Assembly (NCBI GenBank): GCA_964412165.1
Contig: CAYPMW010000002.1
Location: 1,324-65,323 of the forward strand
Direction: 5' to 3'
DNA: 64,000 nt
Origin: an uncultured Gammaproteobacteria bacterium
GTDB taxonomy: Bacteria > Patescibacteriota > Microgenomatia > UBA10105
In this document: piece after piece, positions 2,978-55,517 of the stretch
Numbering within the stretch: position 1 is the stretch's first letter
Layout: each line of letters begins with the position of its first letter
The notes under the pieces: model-generated
What the model was told of the DNA's origin: nothing
Database searches by the model: none
The model's input: only the letters and a program-made list of their open reading frames with translations
Made by a program: the position numbers and the translations under genes

Positions 2978-3844
2978 ATGCACATCGTCTCAACATTTTT
3001 TCGAGTATTTTTCAAAAGTTTAACTTCACTGTCGTATTACCGCGATGTAGTGAAAGCACCGTTTACGTTTTCGCTTAAATATTTCCTCTTTTTTTCACTA
3101 CTTTTAGGCAGTCTCGCAACTTTCGGAGTTTCAAGTCTAGTCCTTCCCCACGTTACAGTCTTTGTAGACCGATTTGAGAAACGAGCCAACGACCTCTATC
3201 CAGAAGATTTAGTGATCACTATCAAAAACGGCATACTAACTACTAACGCCAATGATCCCATTCGTTTCCCCATCCCATTTGAATTGTTTCTGGAAATCCC
3301 ACCGGCAATCCCCGACAGCAAACAACTCTATCTCGTCACCCTTGATCCATCGTTTGTAAATTCTGAAACCAAAGTAAAGAACTCTCTATTTTATTTCACC
3401 CAAAACTACTTATATATATCTGACGGAGAAAATTCCACTCAGTACTCCTTAAGTGACTTTGGCGACGTTAAGATCACTAAAAGTGGGGTCAACAGATTTA
3501 TCCAAACCATCATCCCCTTATTAAAAATGGTACCAGCACTTCTCGTGGTAGTATTCATGCTACTTTTTTTTATCATTTGGCCTATTTTGAGACTTATAAG
3601 CCTGCTATTTCATACTACACTCCTTTTACTAGTTGCAAATCTTATTGGTATATCTCTCCCATTTGTCAAAATGTATCAGATTGGGCTGCATTCAATGACG
3701 TTTTCGACCATACTCAGGACCGTCCTGATGGCATTTTCAATTAGTCCGGCGGTTCCGCTTTTCGATTCGGTGATATTTCTTTTGTTTAATCTGGCGGTAC
3801 TTGCCGAGCTAAAACATCCACAACGCCATAAGTCCCAAAGCTAA
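2978..3844 (+). CDS. integral membrane protein, unknown function
   Basis: 288 aa with several hydrophobic helices at both ends and a central soluble segment. Confidence 0.5.
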   Translation: MHIVSTFFRVFFKSLTSLSYYRDVVKAPFTFSLKYFLFFSLLLGSLATFGVSSLVLPHVTVFVDRFEKRANDLYPEDLVITIKNGILTTNANDPIRFPIPFELFLEIPPAIPDSKQLYLVTLDPSFVNSETKVKNSLFYFTQNYLYISDGENSTQYSLSDFGDVKITKSGVNRFIQTIIPLLKMVPALLVVVFMLLFFIIWPILRLISLLFHTTLLLLVANLIGISLPFVKMYQIGLHSMTFSTILRTVLMAFSISPAVPLFDSVIFLLFNLAVLAELKHPQRHKSQS

Positions 3845-3881
3845 CATCCGTCCTTTAGGCGCCGCTGATATAATAACAGTA

Positions 3882-4646
3882 ATGTTTAAAAAATTGCTTT
3901 TGATGATCCTCGGGGTATTCGCAATCGGAATTGGGATTATTACGTATTTTGACTTGAGCGAAAAAAACGAGACTAAAGTGCCATTTGTCGTATCGCCGTC
4001 TCCCATACCATCAGCAGATGGATCTCAAATGGTAGTAGTAAACCAAAAATCATATTCGGTATTTGTACAAGCTGTGGGCGACCCTTCCCAACTCATACTC
4101 ATCCCAAATTTTAAGGATAAAATTCTTTCCCGTGAAATTATTGAAAATAATGGTTGTCTGTACGGGATAAATGGCGGTTTCTACACAACCAAAAATACCC
4201 CTCTGGGACTCTTTTATACAAAAGGGGTGTATTATGAAAAAAAGCTACATCGGTCAACGCTAACAAACGGATATGTGTTTTTCAAAGACAGAACGCTCCA
4301 CATATCAACCTCTCCTCCTGCCTCCGAATCAACTGATTTTGTTTTCCAAACCGGACCCTTTTTTACTCCGTCTACCCAACTCTCTATTGTTAATGATGAA
4401 CCTTCACGCCGGATGCTAGTGGGAATTGACTCCCGAGAAAACGGGTATTTTATAGCCGTAGTGAGTCGGGAAAATGTCCATTCGGGCCCTCTGCTTGCTG
4501 ATCTGCCACAAATCGCAGGTAAACTTAATCCCACTTTTACACAACTGGTCAATCTAGATGGCGGATCGGCATCAGCATATTATATAAAATATAAAGTTCA
4601 ATACTCCGAACTCACTCCGATTGGCAGCTTCCTGTGCGGAAAATAG
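3882..4646 (+). CDS. phosphodiester glycosidase family protein (NAGPA/DUF2233-like), membrane anchored
   Basis: N-terminal TM; YGINGGFY...LVGIDSRENGYFIAVV...NLDGGSASAYY resemble DUF2233 conserved blocks. Confidence 0.5.
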   Translation: MFKKLLLMILGVFAIGIGIITYFDLSEKNETKVPFVVSPSPIPSADGSQMVVVNQKSYSVFVQAVGDPSQLILIPNFKDKILSREIIENNGCLYGINGGFYTTKNTPLGLFYTKGVYYEKKLHRSTLTNGYVFFKDRTLHISTSPPASESTDFVFQTGPFFTPSTQLSIVNDEPSRRMLVGIDSRENGYFIAVVSRENVHSGPLLADLPQIAGKLNPTFTQLVNLDGGSASAYYIKYKVQYSELTPIGSFLCGK

Positions 4647-4701: not shown

Positions 4702-5028
4702 ATGGAAGAAAATATCACTCAAACTGTAACCATGACTTCACCACATACCAAAAGTAATTGGCCGCGTACTCTGCTCCTTATCCTGTTGTTAGCTACACTT
4801 CTGGGTGCTGGAGCACTCACGTTTGTGGTGGTCAGTAATAAACAATACCTTAATACTCCAGTCAATGATGTACCCGTGGCGTCTCCTGAATCAGGCACAA
4901 CTACCAATCCGTTTGAAGATACTGCTCAGGTAAACCCATTCGATAGCGAACCTAATGACGAAAACCCGTTCGACCAATTCGCATCGGAAGAAGAAACCGA
5001 TACTGGTGTGTATCAAAATCCGTTTTAA
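4702..5028 (+). CDS. membrane-anchored protein with four NPF motifs in an acidic tail
   Basis: TM helix LLLILLLATLLGAGALTFVVV, then TNPFED, VNPFDS, ENPFDQ, QNPF; stop 4 nt before the next gene start. Confidence 0.5.
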   Translation: MEENITQTVTMTSPHTKSNWPRTLLLILLLATLLGAGALTFVVVSNKQYLNTPVNDVPVASPESGTTTNPFEDTAQVNPFDSEPNDENPFDQFASEEETDTGVYQNPF

Positions 5029-5031
5029 TAT

Positions 5032-5913
5032 ATGAAGCGAGTCTTACGAACTATACTAGTTGGCGGAGTGCTCTTGGTACTGCTTTTGGTGGTAAAAAAT
5101 TCAAATGCCTTTGAATACCCGATAAAAGAACTGGGTGGGTGCCGTGACCAAAGAGAGTGCCGGCTTTTTTGTGAAATTCCCAACCATAAAGCTGCCTGCT
5201 GGTCATGGGGCGTTTATAGCATGAAGCGAGCCGTACTCGGTGAATCCACACCTGAAGAAAAACTTGCTCCACTCGACGTTACATTCCCCATCGCTGAGCT
5301 CGGCAATTGTGAAAATTTAGCCGATTGCCGCGAGTTTTGCGCGTCTCCCTCCAATAAATATTCTTGTCGAGTTTACGGGCAAACACACGGTCTAACCAAT
5401 AAACAAAAAATCATTGATCGGGCAGAGGAAGAACTCGGATGTACCACACAAGCAGAATGTCGCGCTTACTGCGAAATCGAAACCAATAAGGACACCTGCC
5501 GCGAATTTGCTAAAAAATACCATCTGCGCCGGGTATCCAAAGCGCGGATTATAGAGTATGCGAAAACCGATTTAGGTTGCGATACGTATGAATCATGCCG
5601 AATTTACTGTGCTGACAGTGTTCACCGTGAAGAATGTCGAGATTTTGCCCAAAAAATCGGCAGAAGCGCGAGAAGAATAATCAAAACAAAAGGTGACTGT
5701 AAGACTGTAGATGAATGTAGGGATTTCTGCGAAGAACTTCCAAATGAGTGTCCAAATTTTCCAAAAACAGGTAGATTTGATCAAAAACGTATCGATGATA
5801 GCTTAGATGATGGAGAAGATGAAACAAATGAGACAGATGAAACAAACCAGTCCCAAGATGATACTGTCAACGATGATGGTGATGAAGCTGGAGACTCCGA
5901 CCTTGATCAATAG
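5032..5913 (+). CDS. secreted cysteine-rich repeat protein (five C-x5-6-C-R-x-F/Y-C-x7-9-C modules) with an acidic C-terminal tail
   Basis: Signal-peptide-like N-terminus; repeats ELGGCRDQRECRLFCEIPNHKAAC, ELGNCENLADCREFCASPSNKYSC, ELGCTTQAECRAYCEIETNKDTC, DLGCDTYESCRIYCADSVHREEC, KGDCKTVDECRDFCEELPNEC; tail DDGEDETNETDETNQSQDD... Confidence 0.6.
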   Translation: MKRVLRTILVGGVLLVLLLVVKNSNAFEYPIKELGGCRDQRECRLFCEIPNHKAACWSWGVYSMKRAVLGESTPEEKLAPLDVTFPIAELGNCENLADCREFCASPSNKYSCRVYGQTHGLTNKQKIIDRAEEELGCTTQAECRAYCEIETNKDTCREFAKKYHLRRVSKARIIEYAKTDLGCDTYESCRIYCADSVHREECRDFAQKIGRSARRIIKTKGDCKTVDECRDFCEELPNECPNFPKTGRFDQKRIDDSLDDGEDETNETDETNQSQDDTVNDDGDEAGDSDLDQ

Positions 5914-5980: not shown

Positions 5981-6616
5981 TTAACTCTGACTCACTGCAT
6001 GGGGAGGGGATATCAAGTCAATTATCTTCCATGATACATATCCTACCAACCATCCCAAAACTGCGCCTGCGACTACATCAAGTGGGTAATGTTTACCTAA
6101 AAAAATGCGGGAGAAAGCAGTGAGAACAGCAAACCCGATAAAAATGATGCGGGCAATTCTATTGCGTTGCCGGGAATGCCTTTTTCCATGTTTTCCATAA
6201 GTTTCTTCCCGCGTCACGATGTAAGCTCCGGCAAAGGCAATTGCCGCGTGTCCTGAGGGAAACGCAAAATCATTGTTCCAAGGAACAGCCGCAGGTTTTT
6301 CTTTAACTACAATAACCTGGTTTCCTATCCGCAAATCTGGACGAGGTCGCCTCACGATAGGTTTGATAAAACCCGATGCCAGCCATCCAGCAATAAGAAG
6401 TGCCAGGATAAGTCTGACTATAAATATTTTTTCTCTGCGCTCCTCAAGTATGGTCACTGTGACACCAATTACTGTCCAGATAATGAGCGGATAAAACGAG
6501 AAAAACAGAAATATCTGGTCAATACCTTCCGAATGAGGTAGAGAGTTAATCGCTAAAAATAAAGCCCGATCAAAAGTAGTAAAAAGTCCGATAAGATCCA
6601 TATAACTATAATACAC
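5981..6616 (-). CDS. PAP2-family phosphatase (undecaprenyl-diphosphate/lipid phosphatase-like)
   Basis: KPIVRRPRP, PSGHAA and SRIFLGKHYPLDV match the three PAP2 motifs; multi-TM. Confidence 0.8.
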   Translation of the reverse strand: MYYSYMDLIGLFTTFDRALFLAINSLPHSEGIDQIFLFFSFYPLIIWTVIGVTVTILEERREKIFIVRLILALLIAGWLASGFIKPIVRRPRPDLRIGNQVIVVKEKPAAVPWNNDFAFPSGHAAIAFAGAYIVTREETYGKHGKRHSRQRNRIARIIFIGFAVLTAFSRIFLGKHYPLDVVAGAVLGWLVGYVSWKIIDLISPPHAVSQS

Positions 6617-7962: not shown

Positions 7963-9309
7963 ATGCTAACTCCTCCCCATACCAATGGCGACAATAAAAC
8001 TCAAACAAGCAGGTCCGCTCCATCTTCCGAATCACATATATCCTACGTCACGACTCAAACAAGAACATCCTTATTCAAGCAAGAAAGAACCAGAAAAGTG
8101 ATGTTTGTCGCGACTTGGGTAATTTTCATTTTCATAGTTCTCCTTTTTATGCCCATCCCCTACTACAATTCTAAAAACCCTCAGTGTCAAGTCGCTACAA
8201 ATTGTCTCTATAAGGGTTGGGGTATTGGCCCGTCCATATTGCAGATGTTCTTTCCAGCCTCCATCTCCCAACAACTCCAGTCACCGCCGATTAAGGCAGC
8301 AGCTACTCCTGATCTTACAGCTAATTGGAAAATGTACGAAAATGCTCAGTATAATTTCAGATTTAAATATCCACTAGAGATCCGAAAAATCAGTTCACCG
8401 ACAAAATCTAACCTCATTCTTCTACGAAATGAAATAATTGAGGACCCTATCTTCGATTTATGCGGTATTAAAAATGCCATTGTTACTGTCGAAATGACTC
8501 CACAATTTGATGCTCCGAACACCACAAAGTGGCCACCAATTAAACTGAGCGTTGCTCAAGATGCATTAGAACCAAATGTCAGCATTAACGAGTGGTTACT
8601 GACGAATTGCCAAGGTGAGTGGGTATTTTATGCAAGTCCACAAAAGACTGTCGTTGTCGATGGGTACGAGGCACTTTTATTAAGTGGTGGAAGTAAAACA
8701 ACTCCGCATTATGGCTTTACGCAATTGGCTCTCGTGAAAAAAGAAGATTATATTTTTTTGGTACAGTCGCAAGACAATCTCCAACCACAATGTGTCTTGG
8801 GAGAAGAATGTCCTGACTACCAAACAAACCAGCTGTTTAACCAAATCCTTTCTACGTTTGAATTCATTGATAACAAAACAATTGCAGGTAAAAAGGTCGA
8901 AAACCAAATTCCTCAAGATGCATATTGTCAAAGTGATGCTGATTGCGGGGTAAATATCTGCGATTGCAAGGCGCAAAATAGTAACTACATCAAAGACGAA
9001 GATAAAATTTGCATGAGAGTTTGTTCAGGAACTCCGGTGTGTTTTAAAAATCGATGTATCTTCAAGGGTAATGAAGATAAATACTATCTAGAGATTGACA
9101 ATGTTCCCGAAATTTCCTGGAATGAAGCCATGGTTCTCATCAACGGCTGCCAAGTGGTGAGTGTAACTCAGTCCCATGCACTCGGAGTTATGCTGACATT
9201 ACGTGATCGAACCATGAAGTATGCTCTTGAACCTGAAATAGATGATGTACTACATGCTGCAAGAGCAGTAAATGATACGTGCGGACCGATCCAAATGGCA
9301 ACTGAATAG
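7963..9309 (+). CDS. hypothetical membrane-anchored protein with a Cys-rich C-terminal domain
   Basis: TM near residues 45-65; C-terminal cluster CQSDADCGVNICDCKAQ...CMRVCSGTPVCFKNRC; start may be the internal Met at ~8098. Confidence 0.45.
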   Translation: MLTPPHTNGDNKTQTSRSAPSSESHISYVTTQTRTSLFKQERTRKVMFVATWVIFIFIVLLFMPIPYYNSKNPQCQVATNCLYKGWGIGPSILQMFFPASISQQLQSPPIKAAATPDLTANWKMYENAQYNFRFKYPLEIRKISSPTKSNLILLRNEIIEDPIFDLCGIKNAIVTVEMTPQFDAPNTTKWPPIKLSVAQDALEPNVSINEWLLTNCQGEWVFYASPQKTVVVDGYEALLLSGGSKTTPHYGFTQLALVKKEDYIFLVQSQDNLQPQCVLGEECPDYQTNQLFNQILSTFEFIDNKTIAGKKVENQIPQDAYCQSDADCGVNICDCKAQNSNYIKDEDKICMRVCSGTPVCFKNRCIFKGNEDKYYLEIDNVPEISWNEAMVLINGCQVVSVTQSHALGVMLTLRDRTMKYALEPEIDDVLHAARAVNDTCGPIQMATE

Positions 9310-23811: not shown

Positions 23812-23884
23812 GCCGAGATAGCTCAGTGGTAGAGCAACTGTTTTGTAAACAGTAGGTCCGGGGTTCGACCCCCCGTCTCGGCTC
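23812..23884 (+). tRNA. tRNA-Thr (anticodon UGU)
   Basis: Manual cloverleaf: acceptor GCCGAGA/TCTCGGC, D-arm GCTC-AGTGGTA-GAGC, anticodon stem ACTGT/ACAGT with loop TTTGTAA, T-arm CGGGG-TTCGACC-CCCCG. Confidence 0.85.
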
Positions 23885-23960
23885 CTCAGGCGGTAAGCTC
23901 GATTTGTACTGGGATAAACAGCAGATCCATGATTTAATCCAGTCATACTGATACATTACA

Positions 23961-38082: not shown

Positions 38083-38611
38083 ATGAAGAATTTTTGTATC
38101 AATCTATTTACGGCCAGCAAAATTGTTCTGAATGACAAACTATATTTTGTAGGATTTCTGATTATTACAGCAGTTCTCTTTTGGCTGTTTTTATACATTC
38201 CGGTGAGGATTATTCCCGGCAATGACTTTACGTTTCAGCTCAGTATCCTAAGTCCCAAGGACATCACTGTCCTGGTTCTTCTATCTCTGGTTAGTGCTCT
38301 TTCACTCACCTTACATCTTTATATGTTGAGGAAAAGAACTTTAAATAAAGAAGTCGCCTTGACTCTCGGAAGCGGCTTTTTAGGGGGTACTGCAAGAGTA
38401 TGGTTCAATTTTTACTCCCGCCAGCTGCGCTGCTTGTGTCACGACACTGTTGAGTTTTTTGGGTGTTGGAACAGTGTTTTTCCTTCTTATTTACCGGCAG
38501 TATATTATTATTCTTTCGCTAGTTCTTATGCTTGTTTCTTTGCATTTTACAGCTCGGAAAGTTTTAGGAATATGTGACGTGTGTAAAGTTAATTATAAAA
38601 GAATGACATGA
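38083..38611 (+). pseudogene. membrane protein with a TM CxxC (SCAAC) and C-terminal CxxC, split by a +1 frameshift at a T5AG5 tract
   Basis: Frame 1 (38083-~38387) is protein-like, then decays to low-complexity YYYSFASSYACFFAFY. Shifting by one G at GGGGG (38383-38387) gives ...GFLGVLQEYGSIFTPASCAACVTTLLSFLGVGTVFFLLIYRQYIIILSLVLMLVSLHFTARKVLGICDVCKVNYKRMT, ending in ATGA overlap with the next gene. Confidence 0.45.
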
Positions 38612-39252
38612 ACAACGAACTTGTCGTGCCAGTTGGATTATCAAAACATGATCGCAAGGAATTTAAACGCCAATTTTATCGTGAGCTGCAACAGAAACAG
38701 GCAAGAACGGGACAGTTTAAAAAGTATGGAATCATTGGAGTAATTTGTCTCCTTATACTTTTAGGAGGCTACTGGTTAATTAAGCAAGCTTCAAAACCTC
38801 AACCAGGTGAGTTTGTGGCATCATTGGGAAACAAGCATATTCAAAACATCACCGATGCACATGATCCGTATAACTCTTTACCGCCCACGTCAGGAACTCA
38901 TGTTGGTGGGAAAGCTCAGTGGGGCATAAGCGATTCTCCTATTCCCGACGAACTACAACTCCATAATCTCGAAGACGGTGGTGTAGTGGTGCAATATAAC
39001 TGTACACCAGGTGCAGATTCCCAAAACCACGCGACTCCCAGTGCCGAGGCACAAGACGAGTGCAAAAAGCTGGTCGAAGATTTAAGTAGCATAGTGAAAA
39101 AGTATTCCGATAAAGTCCTCATGGCTCCGTATCCGAAACTGGATACCAAGATCGCTCTTACTGCTTGGACACGGATAGATAAATTCAATGATTTTGACGA
39201 TGAACGAATACAGAAATTTATAAAAGCATTTAAAGGTATCGATCATCATTAA
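38608..39252 (+). CDS. DUF3105-family protein, membrane anchored
   Basis: N-terminal TM; YNSLPPTSGTHVG and LHNLEDGGVVVQYNC resemble the DUF3105 blocks (PPTSGPH ... HNLEHGG.V..Y). Confidence 0.55.
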   Translation: MNNELVVPVGLSKHDRKEFKRQFYRELQQKQARTGQFKKYGIIGVICLLILLGGYWLIKQASKPQPGEFVASLGNKHIQNITDAHDPYNSLPPTSGTHVGGKAQWGISDSPIPDELQLHNLEDGGVVVQYNCTPGADSQNHATPSAEAQDECKKLVEDLSSIVKKYSDKVLMAPYPKLDTKIALTAWTRIDKFNDFDDERIQKFIKAFKGIDHH

Positions 39253-39313
39253 TCTTAAACACAGTCGAAGGATTAATGAAATCCTCATGAATAATCGGTT
39301 AAAATAATAATCT

Positions 39314-40894
39314 ATGAATAAAACGTACTTAATAATACTCCTTGTAGCTGTAATTCTTGGTGGAGTTTTTCTTTTTTTAAGGCAACTTGGGAACATCAAC
39401 CCGAAGGGAGAATTTTCTTCCGAAGTAACGAAAGCAAATAGTACTAAACCTCAAGAAATTGTGTCCCTCAAATATGGCGATACTTATAACTTAACCGCCA
39501 GTGTTGTCAAAAAATCTATAAACGGGCAAGAGATGAAAATGCTCGCCTACAATGGCTCAATTCCAGGTCCACTCATCAAAGTTCCTCAAGGAGCGCAAAT
39601 CACTATTAAGTTTACAAATAATACCGATGTTGACTCAACAATTCATTCGCACGGAGTCAGAGTTGATAACAAATTTGATGGCGTTCCCGATTTAACCCAG
39701 CATCCGGTAAAACCAGGGCAATCGTTTATCTATACGCTTAAATTCCCAGACGCAGGTGTTTACTGGTATCACCCACACATTCGCGAGGATTATGCTCAAG
39801 AATTGGGATTGTATGGGAATTTCTTGGTCACACCGAGCACCCCTAATTACTGGGCCGAAGTAGATCGCGAAGAAACTCTTTTCCTGGATGACATTTTGAT
39901 CGAAAACGGGCAAATCGCCAAATTTGATAAATCAGTTGTCGATCACACACTCATGGGTCGATTCGGTAAGACTATGCTTGTGAACGGAGATGATAACTAC
40001 AAGTTATCAGTTAAACAAGGTGAACGAGTTCGCTTCTATATTACCAATGCCGCTAATGCCAGAACTTTTAACTTTGCCATACCTAATACTCGCATGAAAT
40101 TAGTCGGGTCTGATAATGGTAAGTATGAACGAGAGGAATGGATTGATTCGGTAACCATCGGACCATCAGAGCGGCAAATAGTGGAGATCTGGTTTAACCA
40201 GAATGGAGACTACAAAATTGAAAACCAAACTCCTGAAAAAACTTATAATTTAGGGACTATCGCTGTTGCCCAAAATCCCGTTACCGTATCCTATCTAATG
40301 GTACCGCGTACTAATCAAGACGTCATTTATGCAATTGACTCGCTCAGACCTAAGTTTACCAAAGCACCCGATAAAGATATCAAACTCACGCTACAAATGG
40401 GCTCCTCACCTACCGAAGGGAATAATTCTATGGGCGGGCACATGATGGGTAACGGACAAATGATGCAAAACACTCAAATGACTATGGGAGACGTCAAAAA
40501 AATCGAATGGGAAGATGATATGGGGATGATGAATGCGCAATCAACCAAGGATTCTCTTAAGTGGAAACTTGTTGACCAATCAACAAACATGGAGAACATG
40601 GATATTAATTGGCAGTTCAAAAAAGGCGATGTGGTTAAGGTGAAGATTTTCAATGACGATAAATCCATGCACCCGATGCAGCACCCAATTCATATTCATG
40701 GCCAGAGATTTCTGGTACTTTCTACCAATGGCATTAAGAACAATAATCTTGTCTGGAAAGACACCACGCTCATCCAAACTGGCGACACCGTCGAGCTGCT
40801 TGTACAAATGGACAACCCCGGTGACTGGGTCATTCACTGCCATATTCCGGAACACATGGAATCAGGAATGATGAGCGAATTTAAGGTAATATAA
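39314..40894 (+). CDS. multicopper oxidase (CueO/laccase-like) with a Met-rich insert
   Basis: Copper ligand motifs HSHGVRV, WYHPH, HPIHIHGQRF, HCHIPEHMESGMM; Met-rich segment MGGHMMGNGQMMQNTQMTMG...DDMGMMNAQ. Confidence 0.9.
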   Translation: MNKTYLIILLVAVILGGVFLFLRQLGNINPKGEFSSEVTKANSTKPQEIVSLKYGDTYNLTASVVKKSINGQEMKMLAYNGSIPGPLIKVPQGAQITIKFTNNTDVDSTIHSHGVRVDNKFDGVPDLTQHPVKPGQSFIYTLKFPDAGVYWYHPHIREDYAQELGLYGNFLVTPSTPNYWAEVDREETLFLDDILIENGQIAKFDKSVVDHTLMGRFGKTMLVNGDDNYKLSVKQGERVRFYITNAANARTFNFAIPNTRMKLVGSDNGKYEREEWIDSVTIGPSERQIVEIWFNQNGDYKIENQTPEKTYNLGTIAVAQNPVTVSYLMVPRTNQDVIYAIDSLRPKFTKAPDKDIKLTLQMGSSPTEGNNSMGGHMMGNGQMMQNTQMTMGDVKKIEWEDDMGMMNAQSTKDSLKWKLVDQSTNMENMDINWQFKKGDVVKVKIFNDDKSMHPMQHPIHIHGQRFLVLSTNGIKNNNLVWKDTTLIQTGDTVELLVQMDNPGDWVIHCHIPEHMESGMMSEFKVI

Positions 40895-40898
40895 AAAT

Positions 40899-41375
40899 AT
40901 GCTTCATAATAAGCTAGCCAAGAAACATACATATTATAATAACCAATTTTTTGGGAAATGGGCCAGATTTTATGATTATGAAAAATACTTTATGTTTCCG
41001 ATAAGACAAAAGGCAGCCAAATTTTTCCCTCTCAAAGCACCTGCCAAAATTATTGATGTAGCTACAGGCACTGGTGCTCAAGCATATGAGTTGGCGAAAC
41101 TGGGGTTGGATGTGACGGGTGTTGATTTATCGCCTGAAATGCTAGAACAGGCAAAAAAGAAGGGCTCAATCTTGATCGTTGATTACATGGAACCAAGAAA
41201 ACATGTGGTAGGATGGTTGACGCATCCTCTTATTAAGCTATATGAAACTCCTCATTACGACCTTTTCATTAAAAAAGGTCTTGAACGATACTTACGTCAA
41301 GTTGATCATAAAATCAACTGTTATACTCACTTTTTGGGAATAGTCCAAATCGCGCTAATTACAAATACAAAGTAA
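40899..41375 (+). CDS. class I SAM-dependent methyltransferase, short/possibly truncated
   Basis: Motif I IIDVATGTGAQAYELAKLGLDVTGVDLS; only 158 aa. Confidence 0.5.
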   Translation: MLHNKLAKKHTYYNNQFFGKWARFYDYEKYFMFPIRQKAAKFFPLKAPAKIIDVATGTGAQAYELAKLGLDVTGVDLSPEMLEQAKKKGSILIVDYMEPRKHVVGWLTHPLIKLYETPHYDLFIKKGLERYLRQVDHKINCYTHFLGIVQIALITNTK

Positions 41376-41400
41376 ACAGATTGAAAAGAATGTTTATGTG

Positions 41401-41514
41401 ATGGGAAAAAGAGATAGACTATTCCATGCTCTTTTAAATATCGTCAATAATGCTATTAAATATAATGAAGGTAAAGGCACTACCATTAGTGCTACATTCC
41501 CGCGAACAAATTAA
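41401..41514 (+). pseudogene. histidine-kinase ATPase-domain fragment (N-box only)
   Basis: 37-aa ORF MGKRDRLFHALLNIVNNAIKYNEGKGTTISATF matches the HATPase_c N-box (L..NL..NAIKY), compare NLLDNAIKYSSRGGTITIS in the intact kinase at 55739. Confidence 0.5.
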
Positions 41515-41593
41515 GAACTCCTCATTTCTTATTCATCAAATCTTAATCCTCAACTTGATAAGATTTGTTCAATCAGAAAATAACTCCCACTAA

Positions 41594-41614
41594 CCCCCTC
41601 TTATAAAGAGGGGG
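41594..41614 (+). terminator. GC-clamped hairpin CCCCCTCTT-ATA-AAGAGGGGG (intrinsic terminator candidate)
   Basis: Perfect 9-bp stem with a 3-nt loop; the downstream run is only weakly T-rich. Confidence 0.4.
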
Positions 41615-41632
41615 AACTAATTTGAAAAGAGT

Positions 41633-43492
41633 ATGAAAATGAACAAAACCACTGTTCCCATCAAAGGTATGCACTGCCGCTCATGTGAGCTCTTAATTGA
41701 AGATGAAGTATCTCAAATTCCCGGAGTCACCAAAGTTGAAGTCAGCGAAAAAAAGGCTTGTGCCATCGTTCACTTTGAAAATATACTCAATGCTGCAGAC
41801 ATTGAAGGCGCAGTGAAGAAAGCCGGTTATGAAGTTGGTTTTAATGAGACGAAACCGTGGATTTCCAGAAAGCTAGATGACTATCTGGATATTTTTTATG
41901 CCGTTTTTGTACTTGGTGCATTATACGTTGTCGTCAGTATTTTAGGCCTCACAAAGATTTTTGCGACCGGCGCGGGACATCCAACTAATTTAATCACCGT
42001 TCTGATGATTGGTTTAACTGCGGGATTATCCACTTGTATGGCACTCATTGGCGGTTTGATACTTGGAGTTTCAGCCAGATTTTCGGAAATACATCCTGCT
42101 GCAACTGGTATGGAAAAATTCAAACCGCACTTATTTTTTAATGCAGGCAGGATCGTGTCATACATATTTTTTGGTGGAGTTATCGGTCTTTTAGGCTCAA
42201 TGTTTCAGCTTTCCGGGTTTTCATTGGGTCTTATGACGTTAGCCGTTGCTTTGGTTATGTTGACACTTGGTATGCAACTAACAGGATTATTTCCCCGCCT
42301 TGAAAATTTTAAACTTACATTACCTCCAACCATTGGAAAACTACTTGGATTCCAAAGTCAACAAAATCAAGAATATAGTCATAAAAATGCGTTTGTTATG
42401 GGAGCTACCACCTTTTTCCTTCCCTGTGGTTTTACCCAGGCAATGCAACTATATGCTATTTCTACAGGTAATTTTCTATCTGGGGCTCTTATCATGGGAG
42501 TATTTGCTCTCGGAACCGCCCCTGGGCTTTTAGGAATTGGAGGACTCACGTCAGTTATTAAAGGCTTATTTGCCCAAAAGTTTTTCAAATTTGCAGGAGT
42601 AGTTGTCGTTGCTTTGTCTCTTTTCAATCTCAATAATGGTTTAAATCTTATTGGAGTAAGTCCAACCAGTCTCTTCGAAAATGGAACAAATGTACTTGCT
42701 GCTTTCGATGATACTACTACCGAAATACAAGGAAACACCCAAGTAGTAAGAATGAAACAGTCTGCATCAGGGTATGAACCTAATTCCTTTACAATCACCA
42801 AGGGCGTACCGGTCAAATGGATCGTAACTTCAACTGATCCAAATAGTTGCGCAGCGTCTATTCTGGCTTCAAAAATTGGAGTCCGCGCAAATATGCATCC
42901 TGGAGAAAATGTGTTTGAATTTACTCCCACAGAAACAGGAAAAATTCCCTTCTCTTGTATGATGGGCATGTTTCGAGGGTCGTTTACCGTGATTGAAAAC
43001 ACAGGAAAGCCAACCGCTGCTGCGGAAATAAAAGGTGAAACAAATCCTGCACTTGCTCAAGCAGCCGGCTTGCCCACCGACTTGTCCGCCGGAGCGCGAG
43101 CGCAGGTGGAAGCTTTAGCGAAGGCAGGAAGCTGCGGATCAGGTGGATGTGGATGTGGCGGTAGAGCTGCCGCCAAAGTACCTGCGAATGCAACCCCTGA
43201 ACCAGCAGCGTTAAAAGGTGATACTCAAATAATCAAAGCAACTTATACAGTCAGTGGTGACATAACGCCAAAAGTATTCACGGTTAAAAAAGGCAGCAAA
43301 GTCCGCTTTGAAGTAACTGCAAAAGACGATGGGTATGGCTGCATGAGTTCGATCATGATCCCAAGAATCACGTCTCCTCAACTATTAGAAAAAGATAAAA
43401 CACTCATTCTTGAGTTTACTCCGAACAAAACTGGAGATTTACCAATCACCTGTGCAATGGGAATGCAACGAGGAAGTATCAGGGTAATTTAA
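41633..43492 (+). CDS. HMA-domain / DsbD-CcdA-like membrane core / two C-terminal cupredoxin-like domains fusion protein
   Basis: N-terminal GMHCRSCE HMA fold; 6-8 TM with conserved TM cysteines (GLSTCMAL, FFLPCGF); two soluble repeats ...PNSCAAS...FSCMMGMFRGSFTVI and ...GYGCMSS...ITCAMGMQRGSIRVI plus a CGSGGCGCGG linker. Confidence 0.65.
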   Translation: MKMNKTTVPIKGMHCRSCELLIEDEVSQIPGVTKVEVSEKKACAIVHFENILNAADIEGAVKKAGYEVGFNETKPWISRKLDDYLDIFYAVFVLGALYVVVSILGLTKIFATGAGHPTNLITVLMIGLTAGLSTCMALIGGLILGVSARFSEIHPAATGMEKFKPHLFFNAGRIVSYIFFGGVIGLLGSMFQLSGFSLGLMTLAVALVMLTLGMQLTGLFPRLENFKLTLPPTIGKLLGFQSQQNQEYSHKNAFVMGATTFFLPCGFTQAMQLYAISTGNFLSGALIMGVFALGTAPGLLGIGGLTSVIKGLFAQKFFKFAGVVVVALSLFNLNNGLNLIGVSPTSLFENGTNVLAAFDDTTTEIQGNTQVVRMKQSASGYEPNSFTITKGVPVKWIVTSTDPNSCAASILASKIGVRANMHPGENVFEFTPTETGKIPFSCMMGMFRGSFTVIENTGKPTAAAEIKGETNPALAQAAGLPTDLSAGARAQVEALAKAGSCGSGGCGCGGRAAAKVPANATPEPAALKGDTQIIKATYTVSGDITPKVFTVKKGSKVRFEVTAKDDGYGCMSSIMIPRITSPQLLEKDKTLILEFTPNKTGDLPITCAMGMQRGSIRVI

Positions 43493-43502
43493 AAAGATTT
43501 AG

Positions 43503-43709
43503 ATGACACAAACAATAACACTAAAAGGTTTAACCTGTGACGTCTGCGTCAAACTTATCATCAAAAAATTTATGCGAATTCCTGGAGTCGCCTCTACTCG
43601 AGTGACGCTTGATGGCTTAGCTCATGTTGAAGCAAGTCGCACGATTCCCGCAAATGAATACAAACAGGTTTTAACTGGCCTTCCGTACCAAGTAGTAACA
43701 GTTGCATAA
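43503..43709 (+). CDS. CopZ-like heavy-metal-associated (HMA) metallochaperone
   Basis: 68 aa; [15 protein letters not shown] is a variant of the GMxCxxC fold signature. Confidence 0.65.
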
Positions 43710-43717
43710 GAAGATTT

Positions 43718-46700
43718 ATGACACAACAAATTGCACTAAAAATTGACGGTATGCACTGCGCTTCATGTGAGACATTGATTGGTGAAGAATTGAGAGAAAC
43801 TTCTGGCGTATCGGGCGTATCGGTGAGTGCCAAAGAAAAAGTAGCCAGGTTACTACTAGACATGGAAAAAGCTTCTATAGAAGATGTTTTGGCTGCAGTT
43901 GATCGGGCTGGTTATAAAGCCACTGTCGCCAATCTTCAAACCCAAGTCATAGATCAACCTCAATTGGTAGTAAGAAATCAATCAAGCCGAAAACCAATGA
44001 AAATCCAGTTTGAATCACATCTCAAGGCTGAAGGTAAAATTCTTCAGGACGAAAGTGGTAAAGCATATTTTGACGGCAGCATTCGAAATGATAGAAAAGC
44101 AGTCGTTTCTGCTCATAAAGAAGATTTAGGATCAGAAGAAAAAGTAGGTCAATTGGTAAATAGTTTTGGTATGGTGGAAATTTTCAATGCAAATTTTTCC
44201 ACACCCAAAACTAATGGACACAGGAATGGAATAGGGAATTATTCTTCGAGCGAAGGAACGTTAGCGACTGAGTCGAGAAGTAACCTTAATCAAAGTACAG
44301 TTCTCGACTCCGCTTCGCTCCGCTCGAACAATAAGGGCCGGAACAAACGCATTAAACTTTCGCTTACGGGAATGCATTGTGCATCATGTGCAGGTTTAAT
44401 AGAACGATCGCTCAAAAAGGTAAACGGTGTCAAAGAAGCAAATGTTAATTTTGCTGCTGAAAAAGCCAGTGTCGTATTTGATGAAACCCAAACTTCAATT
44501 GACAATCTGACCGAAGCTGTAAAAAAGGTCGGTTACAGAGCTGCTTATCAAGAACAGGAAAATCCAGAACTTGAACGAAAAAAACGTCATGCAGAAATTA
44601 AACAGTTGTTTAACAAATTCTTGGGCAGCTTTATAATAAGCTCCCCAATGCTTTACTTTATGTTCTTTGACTTTTTTTCAGGACTGCCCGGTAAAGCATT
44701 TTTGACACCTTTAATTGGACTTATTTCTTTAGTGCTTGCTACTCCGGTGCAATTTTTATTTGGTGCCTCATTTTATAAAGGCATGTGGTCGGCACTCCGG
44801 ATGAAAACGTTTAACATGGATAGCTTGATCGCTATTGGAACCTCAACTGCGTTCTTTTATTCACTGATAAATTATGGACTCTACGCGCTCACTAAAGGAT
44901 CATTGTTTGGGGTTGGTGGAGAAAAAATACCTGAACTCTATTTTGAAACTGCGGCATTTTTGATTACATTCGTAATTTTGGGTAAATGGCTGGAAAAACG
45001 GGCCAAAGGAAAAACTTCAGATGCCATTAAAAAACTCATGGGTCTCCAAGCAAAAACGGCTCGCGTATTACGCTTTGCGAGCCGTCCTGAACGAAGTGAA
45101 GGACCCCCGTACCTTCAGGATGACAAAGTATTTATGGATATTCCCGTTGATCAGGTTGTAAATGGCGACACAATTCTTGTTCGTCCCGGAGAAAAAGTTC
45201 CGGTTGATGGAAAAATTATCAAAGGTTCCTCCGCCGTGGATGAATCAATGCTCACCGGTGAAAGTTTACCAGTTGAAAAGAATATCAATGACATAGTAAT
45301 TGGTGCTACCATCAATAAGACTGGTAGTTTTGAGTTCATGGCTACTCGAGTCGGTTCTGAAACTGCGCTGGCGCAAATCATCCGCCTGATTGAAGAAGCT
45401 CAAGGCTCCAAAGCGCCCATTCAAGCGTTTGCTGACAAAATATCCGCATATTTCGTACCGGCTGTTATAGGCATTGCTATTTTGACTTTTGTGGTCTGGT
45501 ATTTCTTACTTGGCTCAACACTCGCATTTGCTTTGATGGCATTTACTGCAGTAATTGTCATTGCCTGTCCCTGCGCACTGGGTCTAGCCACCCCAACAGC
45601 ATTGATGGTGGGAACTGGTAAAGGGGCTGAACAAGGAATTTTAATAAAGGGTGGTGAACCACTCGAAGGAGCCTGCAAAGTTAATGCAGTGGTTTTTGAT
45701 AAAACAGGTACTTTAACAAATGGTAAGCCAGCGGTTACAGATACACTGAGTCTTTCCGAGCTTGATGAAGATGAAGTGATTGAAATTGCAGCCTCCCTTG
45801 AAAAATCTTCGGAACACCCTTTAGCTGAGGCAATCGTCAATTATGCTGAGGAAGAAACAATCAATACAACTGAAGTGAATAACTTTAAAGCTATTCCCGG
45901 ACACGGAGTACGAGGCGTGGTCAACGGAAACCTCTATTACATGGGTAATAGAAAGCTTATTGAAGACGTTGCTCAACTTGAAGTTGGTCGAATAAACCGT
46001 AAATTGGAACGACTTGAGGAGCAGGGCAAAACTGCCATGATTCTTACATCTGCCGAAAAAGTCTTAGGAATTGTAGCGGTCGCAGATACCGTCAAGGAAA
46101 CATCTCGTGAGGCAGTGGAAGCATTGAAGATTCGCAAAATTGATGTCTGGATGATTACGGGCGACAATAGACGTACTGCTTTGACGATAGCTAAAGAGGT
46201 TGGTATATCAGAACAATATGTTATGGCCGAAGTTCTACCTCAAAATAAGGCCGAAGCAGTACGTAAACTTCAAGTACCAAATACCAATTTCCAAACAGAG
46301 AAAAGAAATTTTATTTTTAGAATTTTGAATTTATTTGGAATTTGGAATTTGGAATTTGATAATTCCCACAAACGTACTGTTGCGTTTGTGGGCGATGGTA
46401 TCAATGATGCGCCAGCTTTAGCTCAGGCAGATATTGGCATTGCTATGGGATCAGGCACTGATGTGGCCATGGAGACTGGCGGTATTGTAATTATCAAAAA
46501 CGACTTACGTGATGTGGTGAAAGCATTTGATTTGTCAAAAGAAACGATGCAAAAGATCAAACAGAATATGTTTTTTGCGCTCTTCTACAACGTGATCGGT
46601 ATCCCCATTGCCGCCCGTGTATTCATGGGCATTGGATTAGTACTTAAACCAGAATTGGCAGGTCTAGCTATGGCACTTTCATCGGTCTCCGTGGTCACCA

Positions 46701-47269
46701 ACTCACTGCTTATTAAATACTTCAGACCGGGAAAACGAAATTACGTTTCACTTTTTGCGCCAGTTGCGATGACTGCAATTTTCCTATTTGTGTTTTTTGA
46801 ATTTGGTAGAATTAGCTCATCGATGGGTGAAGTGAAAATGGCTGAAGCGAAAACAGAAACAACGATGACTGGAACAAGTCCAGTTAACTCCCAACTTGTT
46901 GCAGCCTTTGCAGCAAGCAACCCAAACAAAATTGCCTTTGACGGAAAAACTCCAAAATATTTTATGGGTATCTCTTCATGGATTACTGAAGCACCAGTTG
47001 CCGAAGGAAAACTTGAGCTATCTGATACAGATGTGATTATTGGCGCAATAGAAGCGGAAGAGATGCGCGAAGAGAAATTGTTCAATAAAGCAGGAGATAC
47101 AATTCCCTATTTCTTTGGGCTACCACAAGTTCGCGTAGCAGCAGTTCTTGCACCTACCGGAACAGTAATCGATGAGTACCATTTTGTAAATCAAAATGCC
47201 ATAAATCAAATAGCCGCTAAACCATTAAACGTTCAAAACGTTGATGGGATAATAACATTTTCTCAATGA
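43718..47269 (+). CDS. copA: copper-translocating P1B-type ATPase, atypically long (1183 aa)
   Basis: Two HMA domains (GMHCASCE x2), TGES, CPC in TM6 ([12 protein letters not shown]), [20 protein letters not shown]-type hinge; also a ~140-aa inter-HMA linker, a ~30-aa insert before GDGINDAP and a ~160-aa C-terminal extension. Confidence 0.9.
46334..46354 (+). repeat. tandem heptamer (TTTGGAA)x3 inside the copA coding sequence
   Basis: tttggaatttggaatttggaa read directly; encodes part of the lineage-specific insert [16 protein letters not shown]. Confidence 0.8.
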
Positions 47270-55226: not shown

Positions 55227-55305
55227 AATATTTAGTATTTGCTAAAAATAGTATTTTGTCAAGTATCTAACATTTAAAATAAAAACGAAATAGTCATTTA
55301 ACATT

Positions 55306-55402: not shown

Positions 55403-55432
55403 ATCGATGATGTGGTTTTGCAAGAGTTTAAG

Positions 55433-55517
55433 TGCCAGGGCTAGGATTCGAACCTAGGTAGCCCGTTAAGGCGGCAGTTTTACAGACTGCTCCGATTGTC
55501 CGCTCCGGCACCCTGGC
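55433..55517 (-). tRNA. tRNA-Tyr (anticodon GUA), long variable arm
   Basis: Reverse-strand cloverleaf: acceptor GCCAGGG/CCCTGGC, anticodon stem GCAGT/ACTGC with loop CTGTAAA, long variable arm, T-arm CTAGG-TTCGAATC-CCTAG. Confidence 0.85.

What the first reader, a model, noticed from the sequence alone, without database searches (positions are those of the whole stretch)
5032..5913. Secreted protein made of five tandem four-cysteine modules with an acidic tail, a possibly undescribed disulfide or metal-binding repeat
Five ~40-aa repeats share the pattern [ED]LG-C-x5-6-C-R-x-[FY]-C-x7-9-C-[RW]-x-[FW]. They are followed by a 45-aa stretch that is >50% Asp/Glu/Asn/Thr, and the protein has a signal peptide. 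I do not recognise this spacing as a known domain; it is not EGF, Kazal, a zinc ribbon or an HMA fold. With 20 Cys in an extracytoplasmic protein, the likely roles are a disulfide-knotted adhesive or inhibitor module, or a metal or calcium binder.
Basis: seen in the sequence. Interest (0 to 1): 0.6.

Follow-up and report, generated by a model that had tools for sequence, protein, structure and literature searches.

The report
Undescribed four-cysteine repeat surface protein
This gene encodes an exported protein made of five copies of a small four-cysteine helical module absent from the domain and structure databases searched; thousands of relatives exist, those with a source name are from ultra-small CPR bacteria, and all 20 loci examined carry the same small membrane-protein partner gene with repeated Asn-Pro-Phe motifs.

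Summary
ORF 5032-5913 (+) encodes a 293-aa protein: a Sec-type signal peptide, five modules spaced exactly C-x5-C-x3-C-x8-C (x6 in the last), and a 46-aa acidic tail. Pfam, NCBIfam, PDB sequences and Foldseek against the PDB give no significant match.

It is not an orphan. A single-module profile finds 1,917 cluster representatives, with up to 13 modules per protein. None has a functional name, and every source lineage name is CPR/Patescibacteria; the window's orthologs are mostly labelled Gottesmanbacteria.

AlphaFold predicts each module as a helix-loop-helix (pLDDT 82). All four Cys are present in 97% of 1,294 modules.

Some relatives carry C-terminal Kazal, ConA-like lectin or Ig-like domains. 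That suggests an extracellular stalk.

New here: the gene just upstream (4702-5028) encodes a single-pass membrane protein whose tail has four NPF motifs. The same pairing occurs at all 20 non-redundant loci examined.

My best reading is a disulfide-stapled surface stalk held or organised by the NPF membrane partner. Disulfide versus metal binding is not settled, and neither is NPF docking.

The module is an undescribed domain within a familiar class of cysteine-rich extracellular repeats.

The parts
4702..5028 (+). Partner gene: 108-aa single-pass membrane protein with an acidic tail. The hydrophobic helix is at about aa 23-44. The tail carries four NPF motifs (nt 4906-4914, 4933-4941, 4963-4971, 5017-5025) and ends ...VYQNPF. 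Its stop codon lies 3 nt before the ATG of the Cys-repeat gene.
   Evidence: ORF; motif coordinates. A TM + NPF-repeat ORF lies upstream on the same strand at all 20 non-redundant loci examined. It is immediately adjacent in 19 of them. No Pfam or NCBIfam family matches.
5032..5913 (+). Cys4-module repeat protein gene (293 aa plus stop)
   Evidence: (100% identical P0001 on 3 contigs).
5032..5109 (+). Predicted Sec signal peptide (aa 1-26), with cleavage after SNA
   Evidence: Read from the sequence (n/h/c regions and the -3/-1 rule). AlphaFold helix 2-24. The motif NA|[FY]E[FY]P is conserved in orthologs.
5116..5217 (+). Module 1 (aa 29-62). F-type N-terminal module YPIKELGG-C-x5-C-x3-C-x8-C-WSW, and the most conserved part among orthologs.
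   Evidence: (invariant P30 L34 G35 C37 R38 E42 C43 C47 P50 K53 A55 C56 W57 Y62).
5284..5385 (+). Module 2 (aa 85-118). Second F-type module, FPIAELGN-C...
5413..5526 (+). Module 3 (aa 128-165), preceded by a linker helix
   Evidence: The single-module AlphaFold model has pLDDT 81.6 with helices at 2-11, 17-24 and 27-39.
5551..5664 (+). Module 4 (aa 174-211)
   Evidence: pLDDT 84-91 over this region.
5671..5769 (+). Module 5 (aa 214-246). Terminal variant C-x5-C-x3-C-x6-C-PNFP.
   Evidence: The x6 variant makes up 147 of 1,257 modules family-wide.
5773..5910 (+). Acidic, predicted-disordered tail (aa 248-293)
   Evidence: It is not conserved in orthologs.

Best explanation
Genes 4702-5028 and 5032-5913 form a conserved two-gene cassette for the cell envelope of CPR (Patescibacteria) bacteria.

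The second gene encodes a Sec-exported protein made of five copies of an undescribed 38-46-aa module. In each module, C1 sits in a loop two residues before the N-cap of helix A. C2-x3-C3 and a conserved aromatic residue line one face of helix A. C4 and a conserved Phe line the facing side of helix B.

I infer that two disulfides per module staple this small hairpin, one of them across the helices. Tandem modules joined by linker helices would then form a stiff, protease-resistant, elongated stalk outside the cell.

The array is polar. One or two special N-terminal modules of the form [FY]P[IV]xELGxC always come first. Whatever varies comes last: Kazal, ConA-like lectin or Ig-like domains in relatives, and here only an acidic disordered tail.

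The first gene encodes a signal-anchored membrane protein whose exported tail displays 2-5 copies of the short motif Y-[QKT]-N-P-F-[DE]. I infer that this tail holds or organises the secreted array at the membrane, probably through the conserved N-terminal modules. The stalk would then project its C-terminal end away from the cell.

Shown: the gene, the module, the size of the family, the domain fusions, the polarity and the gene pairing. Inferred: the disulfides, the stalk role, the outward orientation of the NPF tail and NPF docking.
For: Gene and repeat.

Strong constraint: all four Cys are present in 1,257 of 1,294 profile-detected modules. C2-C3 spacing is x3 in 1,257 of 1,257. The aromatic residue before C3 is Y/F in 95% and F/Y/W follows C4 by three residues in 93%.

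Fold: the AlphaFold single-module model has pLDDT 81.6 and is helix-loop-helix with a linker helix. The full-length model shows the same unit five times and a disordered tail.

Extracytoplasmic location: a signal-peptide-like N-terminus occurs in 228 of 250 members. Relatives carry genuine extracellular domains on the same chain: Kazal, Laminin_G_3 and Big_13.

Oxidising folding environment: Kazal domains need three disulfides (established knowledge). Cysteines outside the modules are even in number in 121 of 128 proteins, p = 6e-28, and counts of 2, 6 and 10 are common.

Polarity: the first module is F-type in 238 of 250 proteins, and F-type modules are strictly N-terminal in 237 of 238. Modules 1-2 hold most of the invariant residues among orthologs.

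Partner: a TM + NPF ORF lies upstream on the same strand at 20 of 20 non-redundant loci, from Gottesmanbacteria to Sungbacteria, Kuenenbacteria and Parcubacteria. The gaps run from overlaps to 77 nt, except at one locus where a DUF4349 gene sits between the two. All 20 NPF-dense ORFs among 1,407 ORF segments in these loci are these partners. In 16 of 18 partners the tail carries a net negative charge, and the N-terminal side is short and basic like a signal anchor.
Against: No coordinates were available, so no Cys-Cys distance was measured and the disulfide connectivity is unknown.

No module has lost a pair of cysteines, so natural variation gives no pairing signal. Total invariance fits a metal site equally well.

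No DsbA or VKOR homolog was seen among the window ORFs I scanned. The only thiol-redox protein found is an HMA-DsbD_2-cupredoxin fusion 36 kb away. CPR bacteria generally lack quinones and respiratory chains (my own knowledge), which makes the source of oxidising power unclear.

NPF number does not track module number (Spearman rho -0.15, p = 0.55). None of 256 family proteins contains two or more NPF motifs, so no NPF-Cys4 fusion was seen.

Flanking-charge counts do not fix the partner's topology. Several Parcubacteria partners have more Lys/Arg after the helix than before it.

Confidence: 0.5

Rival explanations
1. Each module is a tetrahedral Cys4 metal site (Zn2+, or Cu/Cd/Fe in anoxic groundwater). 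The array would be an extracellular metal binder or buffer, or a metal-stabilised scaffold, rather than a disulfide-stapled one.
For: All four Cys are essentially invariant, with no pairwise loss. C2, C3 and C4 face one interface, and C1 lies next to the start of helix A, so the four thiols could converge (geometry inferred). No DsbA or VKOR was seen in the ORFs scanned. Many CPR bacteria live without oxygen (my own knowledge). This particular protein also has an acidic tail.
Against: The signal peptide is Sec-type with no twin arginine, so any cofactor would have to be picked up outside the cell (sequence). CxxxC on a helix is not a usual zinc-knuckle geometry (my own knowledge). Disulfide-dependent Kazal domains sit on the same polypeptides. 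Non-module Cys show strong even parity, including counts of 2, 6 and 10. The module has a conserved aromatic core like a folded domain, unlike metallothioneins. The copper genes in the window are 33 kb away and not syntenic with the pair.
Confidence: 0.2
2. The modules are bioactive mini-proteins, such as protease inhibitors or toxin- or defensin-like effectors. They would be displayed or released in tandem against host or competitor cells, by analogy with multi-Kazal inhibitors.
For: Some relatives are fused to Kazal inhibitor domains. The C-x5-C-x3-C half-pattern is shared with scorpion CS-alpha/beta toxins and inhibitors; the best PDB profile hit is TopI1 (6mrq) at E=0.15. At-threshold AtDEF-like hits occur in some members. 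CPR bacteria are episymbionts (PMC4736985 and my own knowledge).
Against: None of these matches is significant, and the AtDEF-like hits cover the signal peptide plus module 1 with no single stretch passing. The fold is predicted all-helical, with no CxC beta-strand. The conserved positions are core residues and there is no obvious hypervariable reactive loop. The window holds one copy with a fixed membrane partner, and the array has a fixed polarity, which looks structural.
Confidence: 0.1
3. The NPF protein is functionally linked but is not an anchor. It could be a dedicated export or oxidative-folding helper, a regulator, or a co-assembled envelope component that never binds the Cys4 modules directly.
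For: The adjacency is strict, yet NPF and module counts do not correlate, no fusion proteins exist and the topology signals are ambiguous.
Against: Nothing excludes it directly. A tail of short repeated linear motifs with an acidic context is more typical of a ligand than of a chaperone or enzyme (inference).
Confidence: 0.15
4. The ORF or the repeat is a chance or low-complexity artefact.
For: None.
Against: None of 20,000 shuffles had more than two matches, against five observed. The identical protein is found on three independent assemblies. Orthologs at 31-49% identity keep the reading frame and synteny. The profile recovers 1,917 family representatives.
Confidence: 0.01

Closest known systems
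Cysteine-stabilised helical hairpins: plant alpha-hairpinins, kappa-hefutoxin (CS-alpha/alpha) and twin-CX3C proteins such as Tim9/Tim10 (comparison from my own knowledge)
   Same: A short helix-loop-helix braced by cysteines, with a CX3C motif on one helical face pointing at the partner helix. The small size and the predicted fold agree.
   Different: Those families have two CX3C motifs, one per helix. Here helix B has a single Cys and C1 lies in the loop before helix A (C-x5-C-x3-C-x8-C). Those are single domains in eukaryotes, whereas this is a tandem array of 5-13 modules in exported bacterial proteins. No sequence or Foldseek match was found.
Kazal-type domain arrays (Pfam PF00050, PF07648)
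   Same: Small cysteine-rich extracellular modules used in tandem. Genuine Kazal domains occur on the same polypeptides in some relatives.
   Different: Kazal domains have six Cys and an alpha+beta fold. The Kazal HMMs hit only the separate C-terminal domains, never the Cys4 modules, and do not hit the window protein at all.
CS-alpha/beta scorpion toxins, inhibitors and defensins (for example TopI1, PDB 6mrq; Pfam AtDEF-like PF25052)
   Same: They share the N-terminal half-pattern C-x5-C-x3-C, with CxxxC on a helix.
   Different: These modules have no C-x-C beta-strand partner and four Cys rather than six or eight. They are predicted all-helical, and the matches are not significant (E=0.15; 9.7 bits against a cut-off of 25).
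Cysteine-rich large extracellular proteins of CPR Peregrinibacteria (Anantharaman et al. 2016, PMC4736985)
   Same: CPR lineage, signal peptides, high Cys content, and a proposed role in rigidity or attachment.
   Different: Those proteins are about 1,655 aa and weakly resemble Myxococcus cysteine-rich repeats. No such NCBIfam or Pfam hit is found here. No NPF partner is described there.
Eukaryotic EH domain-NPF motif recognition (analogy only, from my own knowledge)
   Same: Repeated NPF tripeptides in an acidic, disordered tail, possibly read by small helix-loop-helix units.
   Different: There is no EF-hand or EH homology. This is a prokaryotic, extracytoplasmic setting, and binding is entirely untested.
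SPASM and ferredoxin-type Fe-S motif CX2CX5CX3C
   Same: It contains the CX5CX3C spacing (literature hits).
   Different: That motif needs the preceding CX2C and further Cys. It sits in cytoplasmic radical-SAM or ferredoxin domains and holds Fe-S clusters. Here there is a Sec signal, no CX2C and no Pfam hit.

Membership tests
Kazal (PF00050/PF07648) | Six-Cys pattern scoring above the Pfam gathering threshold | tested here: not met
   No Kazal hit in the window protein at E<=10. In relatives the Kazal hits map to separate C-terminal domains, for example P0171 residues 633-659.
CS-alpha/beta defensin or scorpion toxin (AtDEF-like PF25052) | CxxxC helix disulfide-bonded to a CxC beta-strand, six to eight Cys, HMM above cut-off | tested here: not met
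   9.7 bits against a cut-off of 25. The PDB profile hit to 6mrq has E=0.15. There is no CxC motif, and the predicted fold is all-helical.
Alpha-hairpinin / twin-CX3C (CS-alpha/alpha) | Two CX3C motifs, one on each antiparallel helix | tested here: not met
   There is only one CX3C per module. Helix B carries a single Cys, and the position four residues after C4 is Ala/Gly in 84% of modules. It may still work in a similar way.
SPASM / Fe-S CX2CX5CX3C | Seven-Cys motif including CX2C, within a cytoplasmic radical-SAM or ferredoxin domain | tested here: not met
   No CX2C is present, the protein has a Sec-type signal peptide, and there is no Pfam hit.
Late nodulin (PF07127) | HMM score above the gathering threshold of 30.4 bits | tested here: not met
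   13.6 bits, E=0.092, spanning the signal peptide plus module 1.
EGF, zinc ribbon, HMA and Myxococcus Cys-rich repeat | A match to the respective Pfam or NCBIfam models | tested here: not met
   No hits at E<=10 in Pfam or NCBIfam.
EH domain (as NPF reader) | A pair of EF-hands of about 100 aa with an NPF-binding pocket | tested here: not met
   No EF-hand or EH hit. NPF binding by the Cys4 modules could not be tested with these tools.
Unnamed CPR Cys4 helix-loop-helix module family (defined here) | Spacing C-x4/5-C-x3-C-x6/8-C, an aromatic residue before C3, N/H five residues after C3, and F/Y/W three residues after C4 | tested here: met
   All five modules fit. The protein was a seed of the profile that recovers 1,917 representatives.
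Unnamed CPR Cys4 helix-loop-helix module family (defined here) | Signal peptide followed first by [FY]P[IV]xELGxC-type module(s) | tested here: met
   Modules 1 and 2 are YPIKELGGC and FPIAELGNC. The same holds in 238 of 250 family members.
Unnamed CPR Cys4 helix-loop-helix module family (defined here) | A TM + NPF-repeat gene upstream on the same strand | tested here: met
   Window 4702-5028, with 3 nt between its stop codon and the next ATG. The pairing is seen at 20 of 20 loci.
Unnamed CPR Cys4 helix-loop-helix module family (defined here) | Two disulfides per module | not testable with these tools
The only support is indirect, from the Kazal fusions and Cys parity.

The most novel reading that the evidence does not exclude
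The pair is a CPR-wide, previously unrecognised two-component surface system. A membrane-anchored protein would display short linear NPF motifs that are read by the N-terminal Cys4 helix-loop-helix modules of a secreted, disulfide-stapled stalk. This would be a prokaryotic, extracytoplasmic counterpart of eukaryotic NPF-EH motif-domain recognition. It would tether lectin, Ig-like and Kazal heads used by these episymbionts to contact or defend against host cells.
Probability: 0.3. Interest if true: 0.75.

Novelty: new variant of a known kind. Interest (0 to 1): 0.6.

Why it matters
CPR/Patescibacteria make up a large share of bacterial diversity. They live attached to other cells, and most of their envelope proteins are unannotated.

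This work defines a compact four-cysteine domain that is missing from Pfam, NCBIfam and the PDB. It occurs in at least 3,099 protein clusters at 90% identity, and at all 20 loci examined a conserved membrane partner is encoded upstream of it.

Naming and modelling this domain would annotate thousands of "hypothetical" proteins. If the NPF tail docks the array, the result is a simple, testable model for how these cells attach surface stalks bearing lectin, Ig-like and protease-inhibitor heads.

The small, highly constrained helical module could also serve as a stable scaffold for protein engineering.

If it turns out to be only a structural spacer, it is still a useful new domain definition, but it is not a new principle.

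Tried and rejected
- **Sequence libraries.** Pfam, NCBIfam and PDB phmmer on the full protein, and a single-repeat profile against PDB sequences, gave only noise.
- **Disulfide connectivity from natural variation.** This failed because the four Cys are never lost in pairs.
- **Rosetta-stone fusions.** None of 256 family proteins has two or more NPF motifs.
- **Stoichiometry.** NPF count against module count shows no correlation.
- **Kazal membership.** Rejected: the Kazal hits are separate domains. The AtDEF-like precomputed hits are at threshold, cover the signal peptide plus module 1, and have no individual stretch passing.
- **Searches that returned nothing usable.** The genome-contig scan with the 9-sequence alignment had no conserved stretch to search with. 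The word-indexed search with the 47-column module alignment found no candidates. The viral-contig scan found no relatives.
- **Operon signals.** Promoter and terminator counts equal those of the shuffles.
- **Thiol oxidases.** Among the window ORFs scanned I found only an HMA-DsbD_2-cupredoxin fusion inside a copper island. Not every ORF was scanned.
- **Literature.** Searches on CPR cysteine-rich surface repeats, Patescibacteria with disulfide, NPF motif in bacteria, Parcubacteria with Kazal, and CX5CX3C found nothing describing this module or the pair.
Full report
**1. The observation**

ORF 5032-5913 on the + strand runs from ATG to TAG and encodes 293 aa with 20 cysteines. The cysteines fall into five modules at aa 37-56, 93-112, 137-156, 183-202 and 223-240. 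The spacing is exactly C-x5-C-x3-C-x8-C in modules 1-4 and C-x5-C-x3-C-x6-C in module 5.

In 20,000 shuffles that keep the protein's composition, 98.3% had no match to this pattern and none had more than two. Five are observed.

The last 46 residues are 43% Asp+Glu and 59% Asp/Glu/Asn/Thr, and AlphaFold predicts them disordered.

The N-terminus MKRVLRTILVGGVLLVLLLVVKNSNA|FEYP reads as a Sec signal peptide without a twin arginine. I judged this from the sequence, as no predictor was available. The cleavage-site context is conserved in orthologs.

The spacing is in fact tighter than stated.

**2. No described family matches**

Pfam returns only two sub-threshold noise hits: Late nodulin at 13.6 bits against a 30.4 cut-off, and AtDEF-like at 9.7 against 25. 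NCBIfam returns nothing, and PDB sequences return nothing.

A profile built from 45 single repeats gives its best PDB hit at E=0.15. That hit is a scorpion CS-alpha/beta inhibitor that shares only the C-x5-C-x3-C half-pattern.

Six literature searches found no description of the module. The nearest paper reports unrelated cysteine-rich giant extracellular proteins in CPR Peregrinibacteria (PMC4736985).

**3. It belongs to a very large unannotated family**

The word-indexed search found only nine relatives. The single-repeat profile, run exhaustively against 1.84 billion cluster representatives, found 1,917 proteins at E<=1e-3. Of these, 1,054 score at E<=1e-30, and some carry up to 13 modules. 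A canonical member (P0017) retrieves at least 3,099 clusters at 90% identity.

None of the listed proteins carries a functional name. Nearly all named ones are "hypothetical", one is called "proline-rich domain-containing protein", and one JGI entry carries a YutE/DUF86 label. Where a source gives a lineage, it is always CPR: Sungbacteria, Kuenenbacteria, Parcubacteria, Paceibacterales or Patescibacteria.

Of the 12 genome loci holding orthologs of the window protein, five are labelled Candidatus Gottesmanbacteria, one Patescibacteria and one Saccharibacteria. The other five are TPA MAGs labelled Gammaproteobacteria or Pseudomonadales. One of these, CAYHKY010000064, has the same gene order as the close relatives, which suggests it is mislabelled.

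Across 1,294 profile-detected modules, all four Cys are present in 1,257; the rest are mostly truncated alignments. Among those 1,257:

- C2-C3 spacing is x3 in all of them.
- C1-C2 is x5 in 1,133 and x4 in 123.
- C3-C4 is x8 in 1,104 and x6 in 147.

The family consensus is GPGG-C-x-[SG]-x-x-E-C-x-A-[YF]-C-x-D-P-x-[NH]-x-x-E-C-x-x-F-[AG]-x-x-x-G.

**4. Anatomy of the module and the array**

The full-length AlphaFold model (9-sequence alignment, mean pLDDT 65, modules 3-4 at 84-91) shows the same unit five times. The single-module model (81-sequence alignment, pLDDT 81.6) agrees. The unit consists of:

- a linker helix;
- a short loop carrying C1;
- helix A carrying C2-x3-C3;
- a tight turn;
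- helix B carrying C4.

From the consensus, the S/T/G two residues after C1 and the Glu three residues later look like an N-capping box (my inference). C2, the aromatic residue and C3 (i, i+3, i+4) share one face of helix A. C4, Phe and Ala (i, i+3, i+4) share one face of helix B.

At least one cross-helix link, from C4 to C2 or C3, is therefore geometrically natural, with C1 pairing with the remaining helix-A cysteine. The same geometry could also bring all four thiols together around a metal.

The array is polar. In 238 of 250 family proteins the first module is a distinct [FY]P[IV]xELGxC type, and such modules are strictly N-terminal to the others in 237 of 238. The window protein has two of them, and they hold most of the residues invariant among orthologs.

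Variable parts lie at the C-terminus. In relatives these are Laminin_G_3 (ConA-like lectin) and Big_13 domains, genuine Kazal domains or low-complexity tails. The window protein's acidic tail is not conserved.

**5. The conserved partner, outside the given coordinates**

The ORF at 4702-5028 ends 3 nt before the ATG at 5032. It encodes 108 aa: a short N-terminus, one hydrophobic helix, and an acidic tail with four NPF motifs that ends ...YQNPF.

An ORF with the same architecture lies upstream on the same strand at every related locus examined. It has one TM helix and 2-5 NPF motifs in the context Y-[QKT]-NPF-[DE], usually with one motif at the extreme C-terminus. The loci comprise:

- 15 Gottesmanbacteria-type and related loci, including a Parcubacteria locus whose Cys protein is only 30% identical;
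- five distant GPGGC-type members, chosen only for contig length. In one of these a DUF4349 gene sits between the two genes.

Among 1,407 stop-to-stop segments of at least 60 aa in these loci, the only 20 NPF-dense ones are these partners. No Pfam or NCBIfam family covers them.

Apart from the pair, the gene neighbourhood is not conserved across lineages. Close relatives share SpoU, DUF1189, NAGPA, the pair, then PAP2. Elsewhere SLT, T2SSE/F or ATP synthase genes flank the pair.

The pair is therefore the functional unit.

**6. Mechanism**

I commit to the following model, with about 0.5 confidence in the whole.

Each module is a helix-loop-helix stapled by two disulfides. Tandem modules make a stiff extracellular stalk. 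The N-terminal F-type modules form the base and the C-terminal end is the business end or tip. The NPF protein is a signal-anchored membrane protein whose exported tail holds or organises the array at the cell surface.

Support for disulfides is indirect:

- The protein is exported by the Sec route.
- Disulfide-dependent Kazal domains sit on the same chains.
- Cysteines outside the modules show a strong even-number bias: 121 even against 7 odd, p = 6e-28, with counts of 2, 6 and 10 common.

Evidence against, or simply missing:

- No coordinates were available, so no S-S distances could be measured.
- No cysteine pair is ever lost.
- No DsbA or VKOR was found among the ORFs scanned.

For NPF docking, the support is the strict gene pairing, the tight coupling of the two genes and the repeated-motif nature of both products. 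Against a simple 1:1 model, motif number and module number do not correlate (rho -0.15) and no fusion proteins exist. The flanking-charge topology signal is ambiguous in several Parcubacteria partners.

The rivals are a Cys4 metal site (0.2), an inhibitor- or toxin-like effector array (0.1), and a partner that is linked but does not dock (0.15).

**7. Comparison with known families, and verdict**

The module works most like cysteine-stabilised helical hairpins such as alpha-hairpinins, kappa-hefutoxin and twin-CX3C proteins. It fails their defining feature, which is two CX3C motifs.

It shares proteins with Kazal domains but is not Kazal. It shares a half-pattern with CS-alpha/beta toxins and with the SPASM Fe-S motif but meets neither definition. 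The NPF-EH comparison is an analogy only.

The finding is real. It is an undescribed domain within a familiar class of cysteine-rich extracellular repeats, and it gains interest from the family's size, its apparent restriction to CPR and the unrecognised NPF partner. Interest: 0.6.

Noticed in passing
window 38599-43489 (+): An apparent copper-handling island: DUF3105 (38599-39249), a three-domain multicopper oxidase (39311-40891), a small methyltransferase (40890-41372) and an unusual HMA-DsbD_2-cupredoxin fusion (41621-43489). A 1,203-aa ORF follows at 43658-47266 that I did not scan. An O2-dependent oxidase and a thiol:disulfide membrane transporter are notable in a CPR genome.
   Followed up: partly
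window 7963-9309 (+): A 448-aa ORF with 16 Cys (3.5%), one N-terminal hydrophobic helix and no Pfam family. A 448-449-aa ORF with no Pfam family occupies a comparable position in L001 and L004. It is probably another exported cysteine-rich envelope protein, with a different Cys pattern.
   Followed up: partly
P0016, P0026, P0054, P0060, P0067, P0075, P0076, P0083, P0085, P0092, P0095, P0109, P0114, P0130, P0138, P0158, P0169, P0173, P0247: A subfamily has an extra conserved domain of about 110 aa between the signal peptide and the first F-type module, with two conserved Cys (...[LF]KKD..GLF.LT..DP.GI.EFSL.P....YGG....C......N..F.DP.DF.P.M.A.I.DC.GN...). It was not analysed or matched to any family here.
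   Followed up: no
L016 4881-5972 and L018 5113-5979: In two loci the NPF partner has a long Pro/Ser/Thr-rich N-terminal extension before the TM helix (364 and 289 aa in total). In L016 this consists of near-perfect tandem repeats (PGNIPEPVTTTSIPPTGGTTGGSAPP). The part before the membrane helix is therefore highly variable.
   Followed up: no
P0007 residues ~250-440: A relative carries a second, different cysteine repeat after the Cys4 modules (YDPATECAK.[PS]GCSW.G..C.C, several copies). It was not analysed.
   Followed up: no
L009, L013, L015, L019, L020 (record titles): Five TPA_asm MAG contigs that carry orthologs are titled 'uncultured Gammaproteobacteria' or 'Pseudomonadales'. L009 has the same gene order as the close relatives of the window (it is the same contig as L005). 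The taxonomic labels look unreliable.
   Followed up: no
window 2978-4646 (+) and 5981-6616 (-): The pair is flanked by envelope-related genes that are syntenic in close relatives: DUF1189 (membrane protein), NAGPA phosphodiester glycosidase with an N-terminal anchor, and a convergent PAP2 lipid phosphatase.
   Followed up: partly
L021 5390-8271: In a Sungbacteria-type locus, a gene for a giant 2,982-aa protein starts directly downstream of the Cys4 gene. A DUF4349 gene also sits between the NPF partner and the Cys4 gene there.
   Followed up: no
window 50163-55241 (-), 23812-23885 (+), 55432-55517 (-): A 1,693-aa ORF with only three Cys, not examined. There are also two tRNA genes, Thr-TGT and Tyr-GTA.
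   Followed up: no
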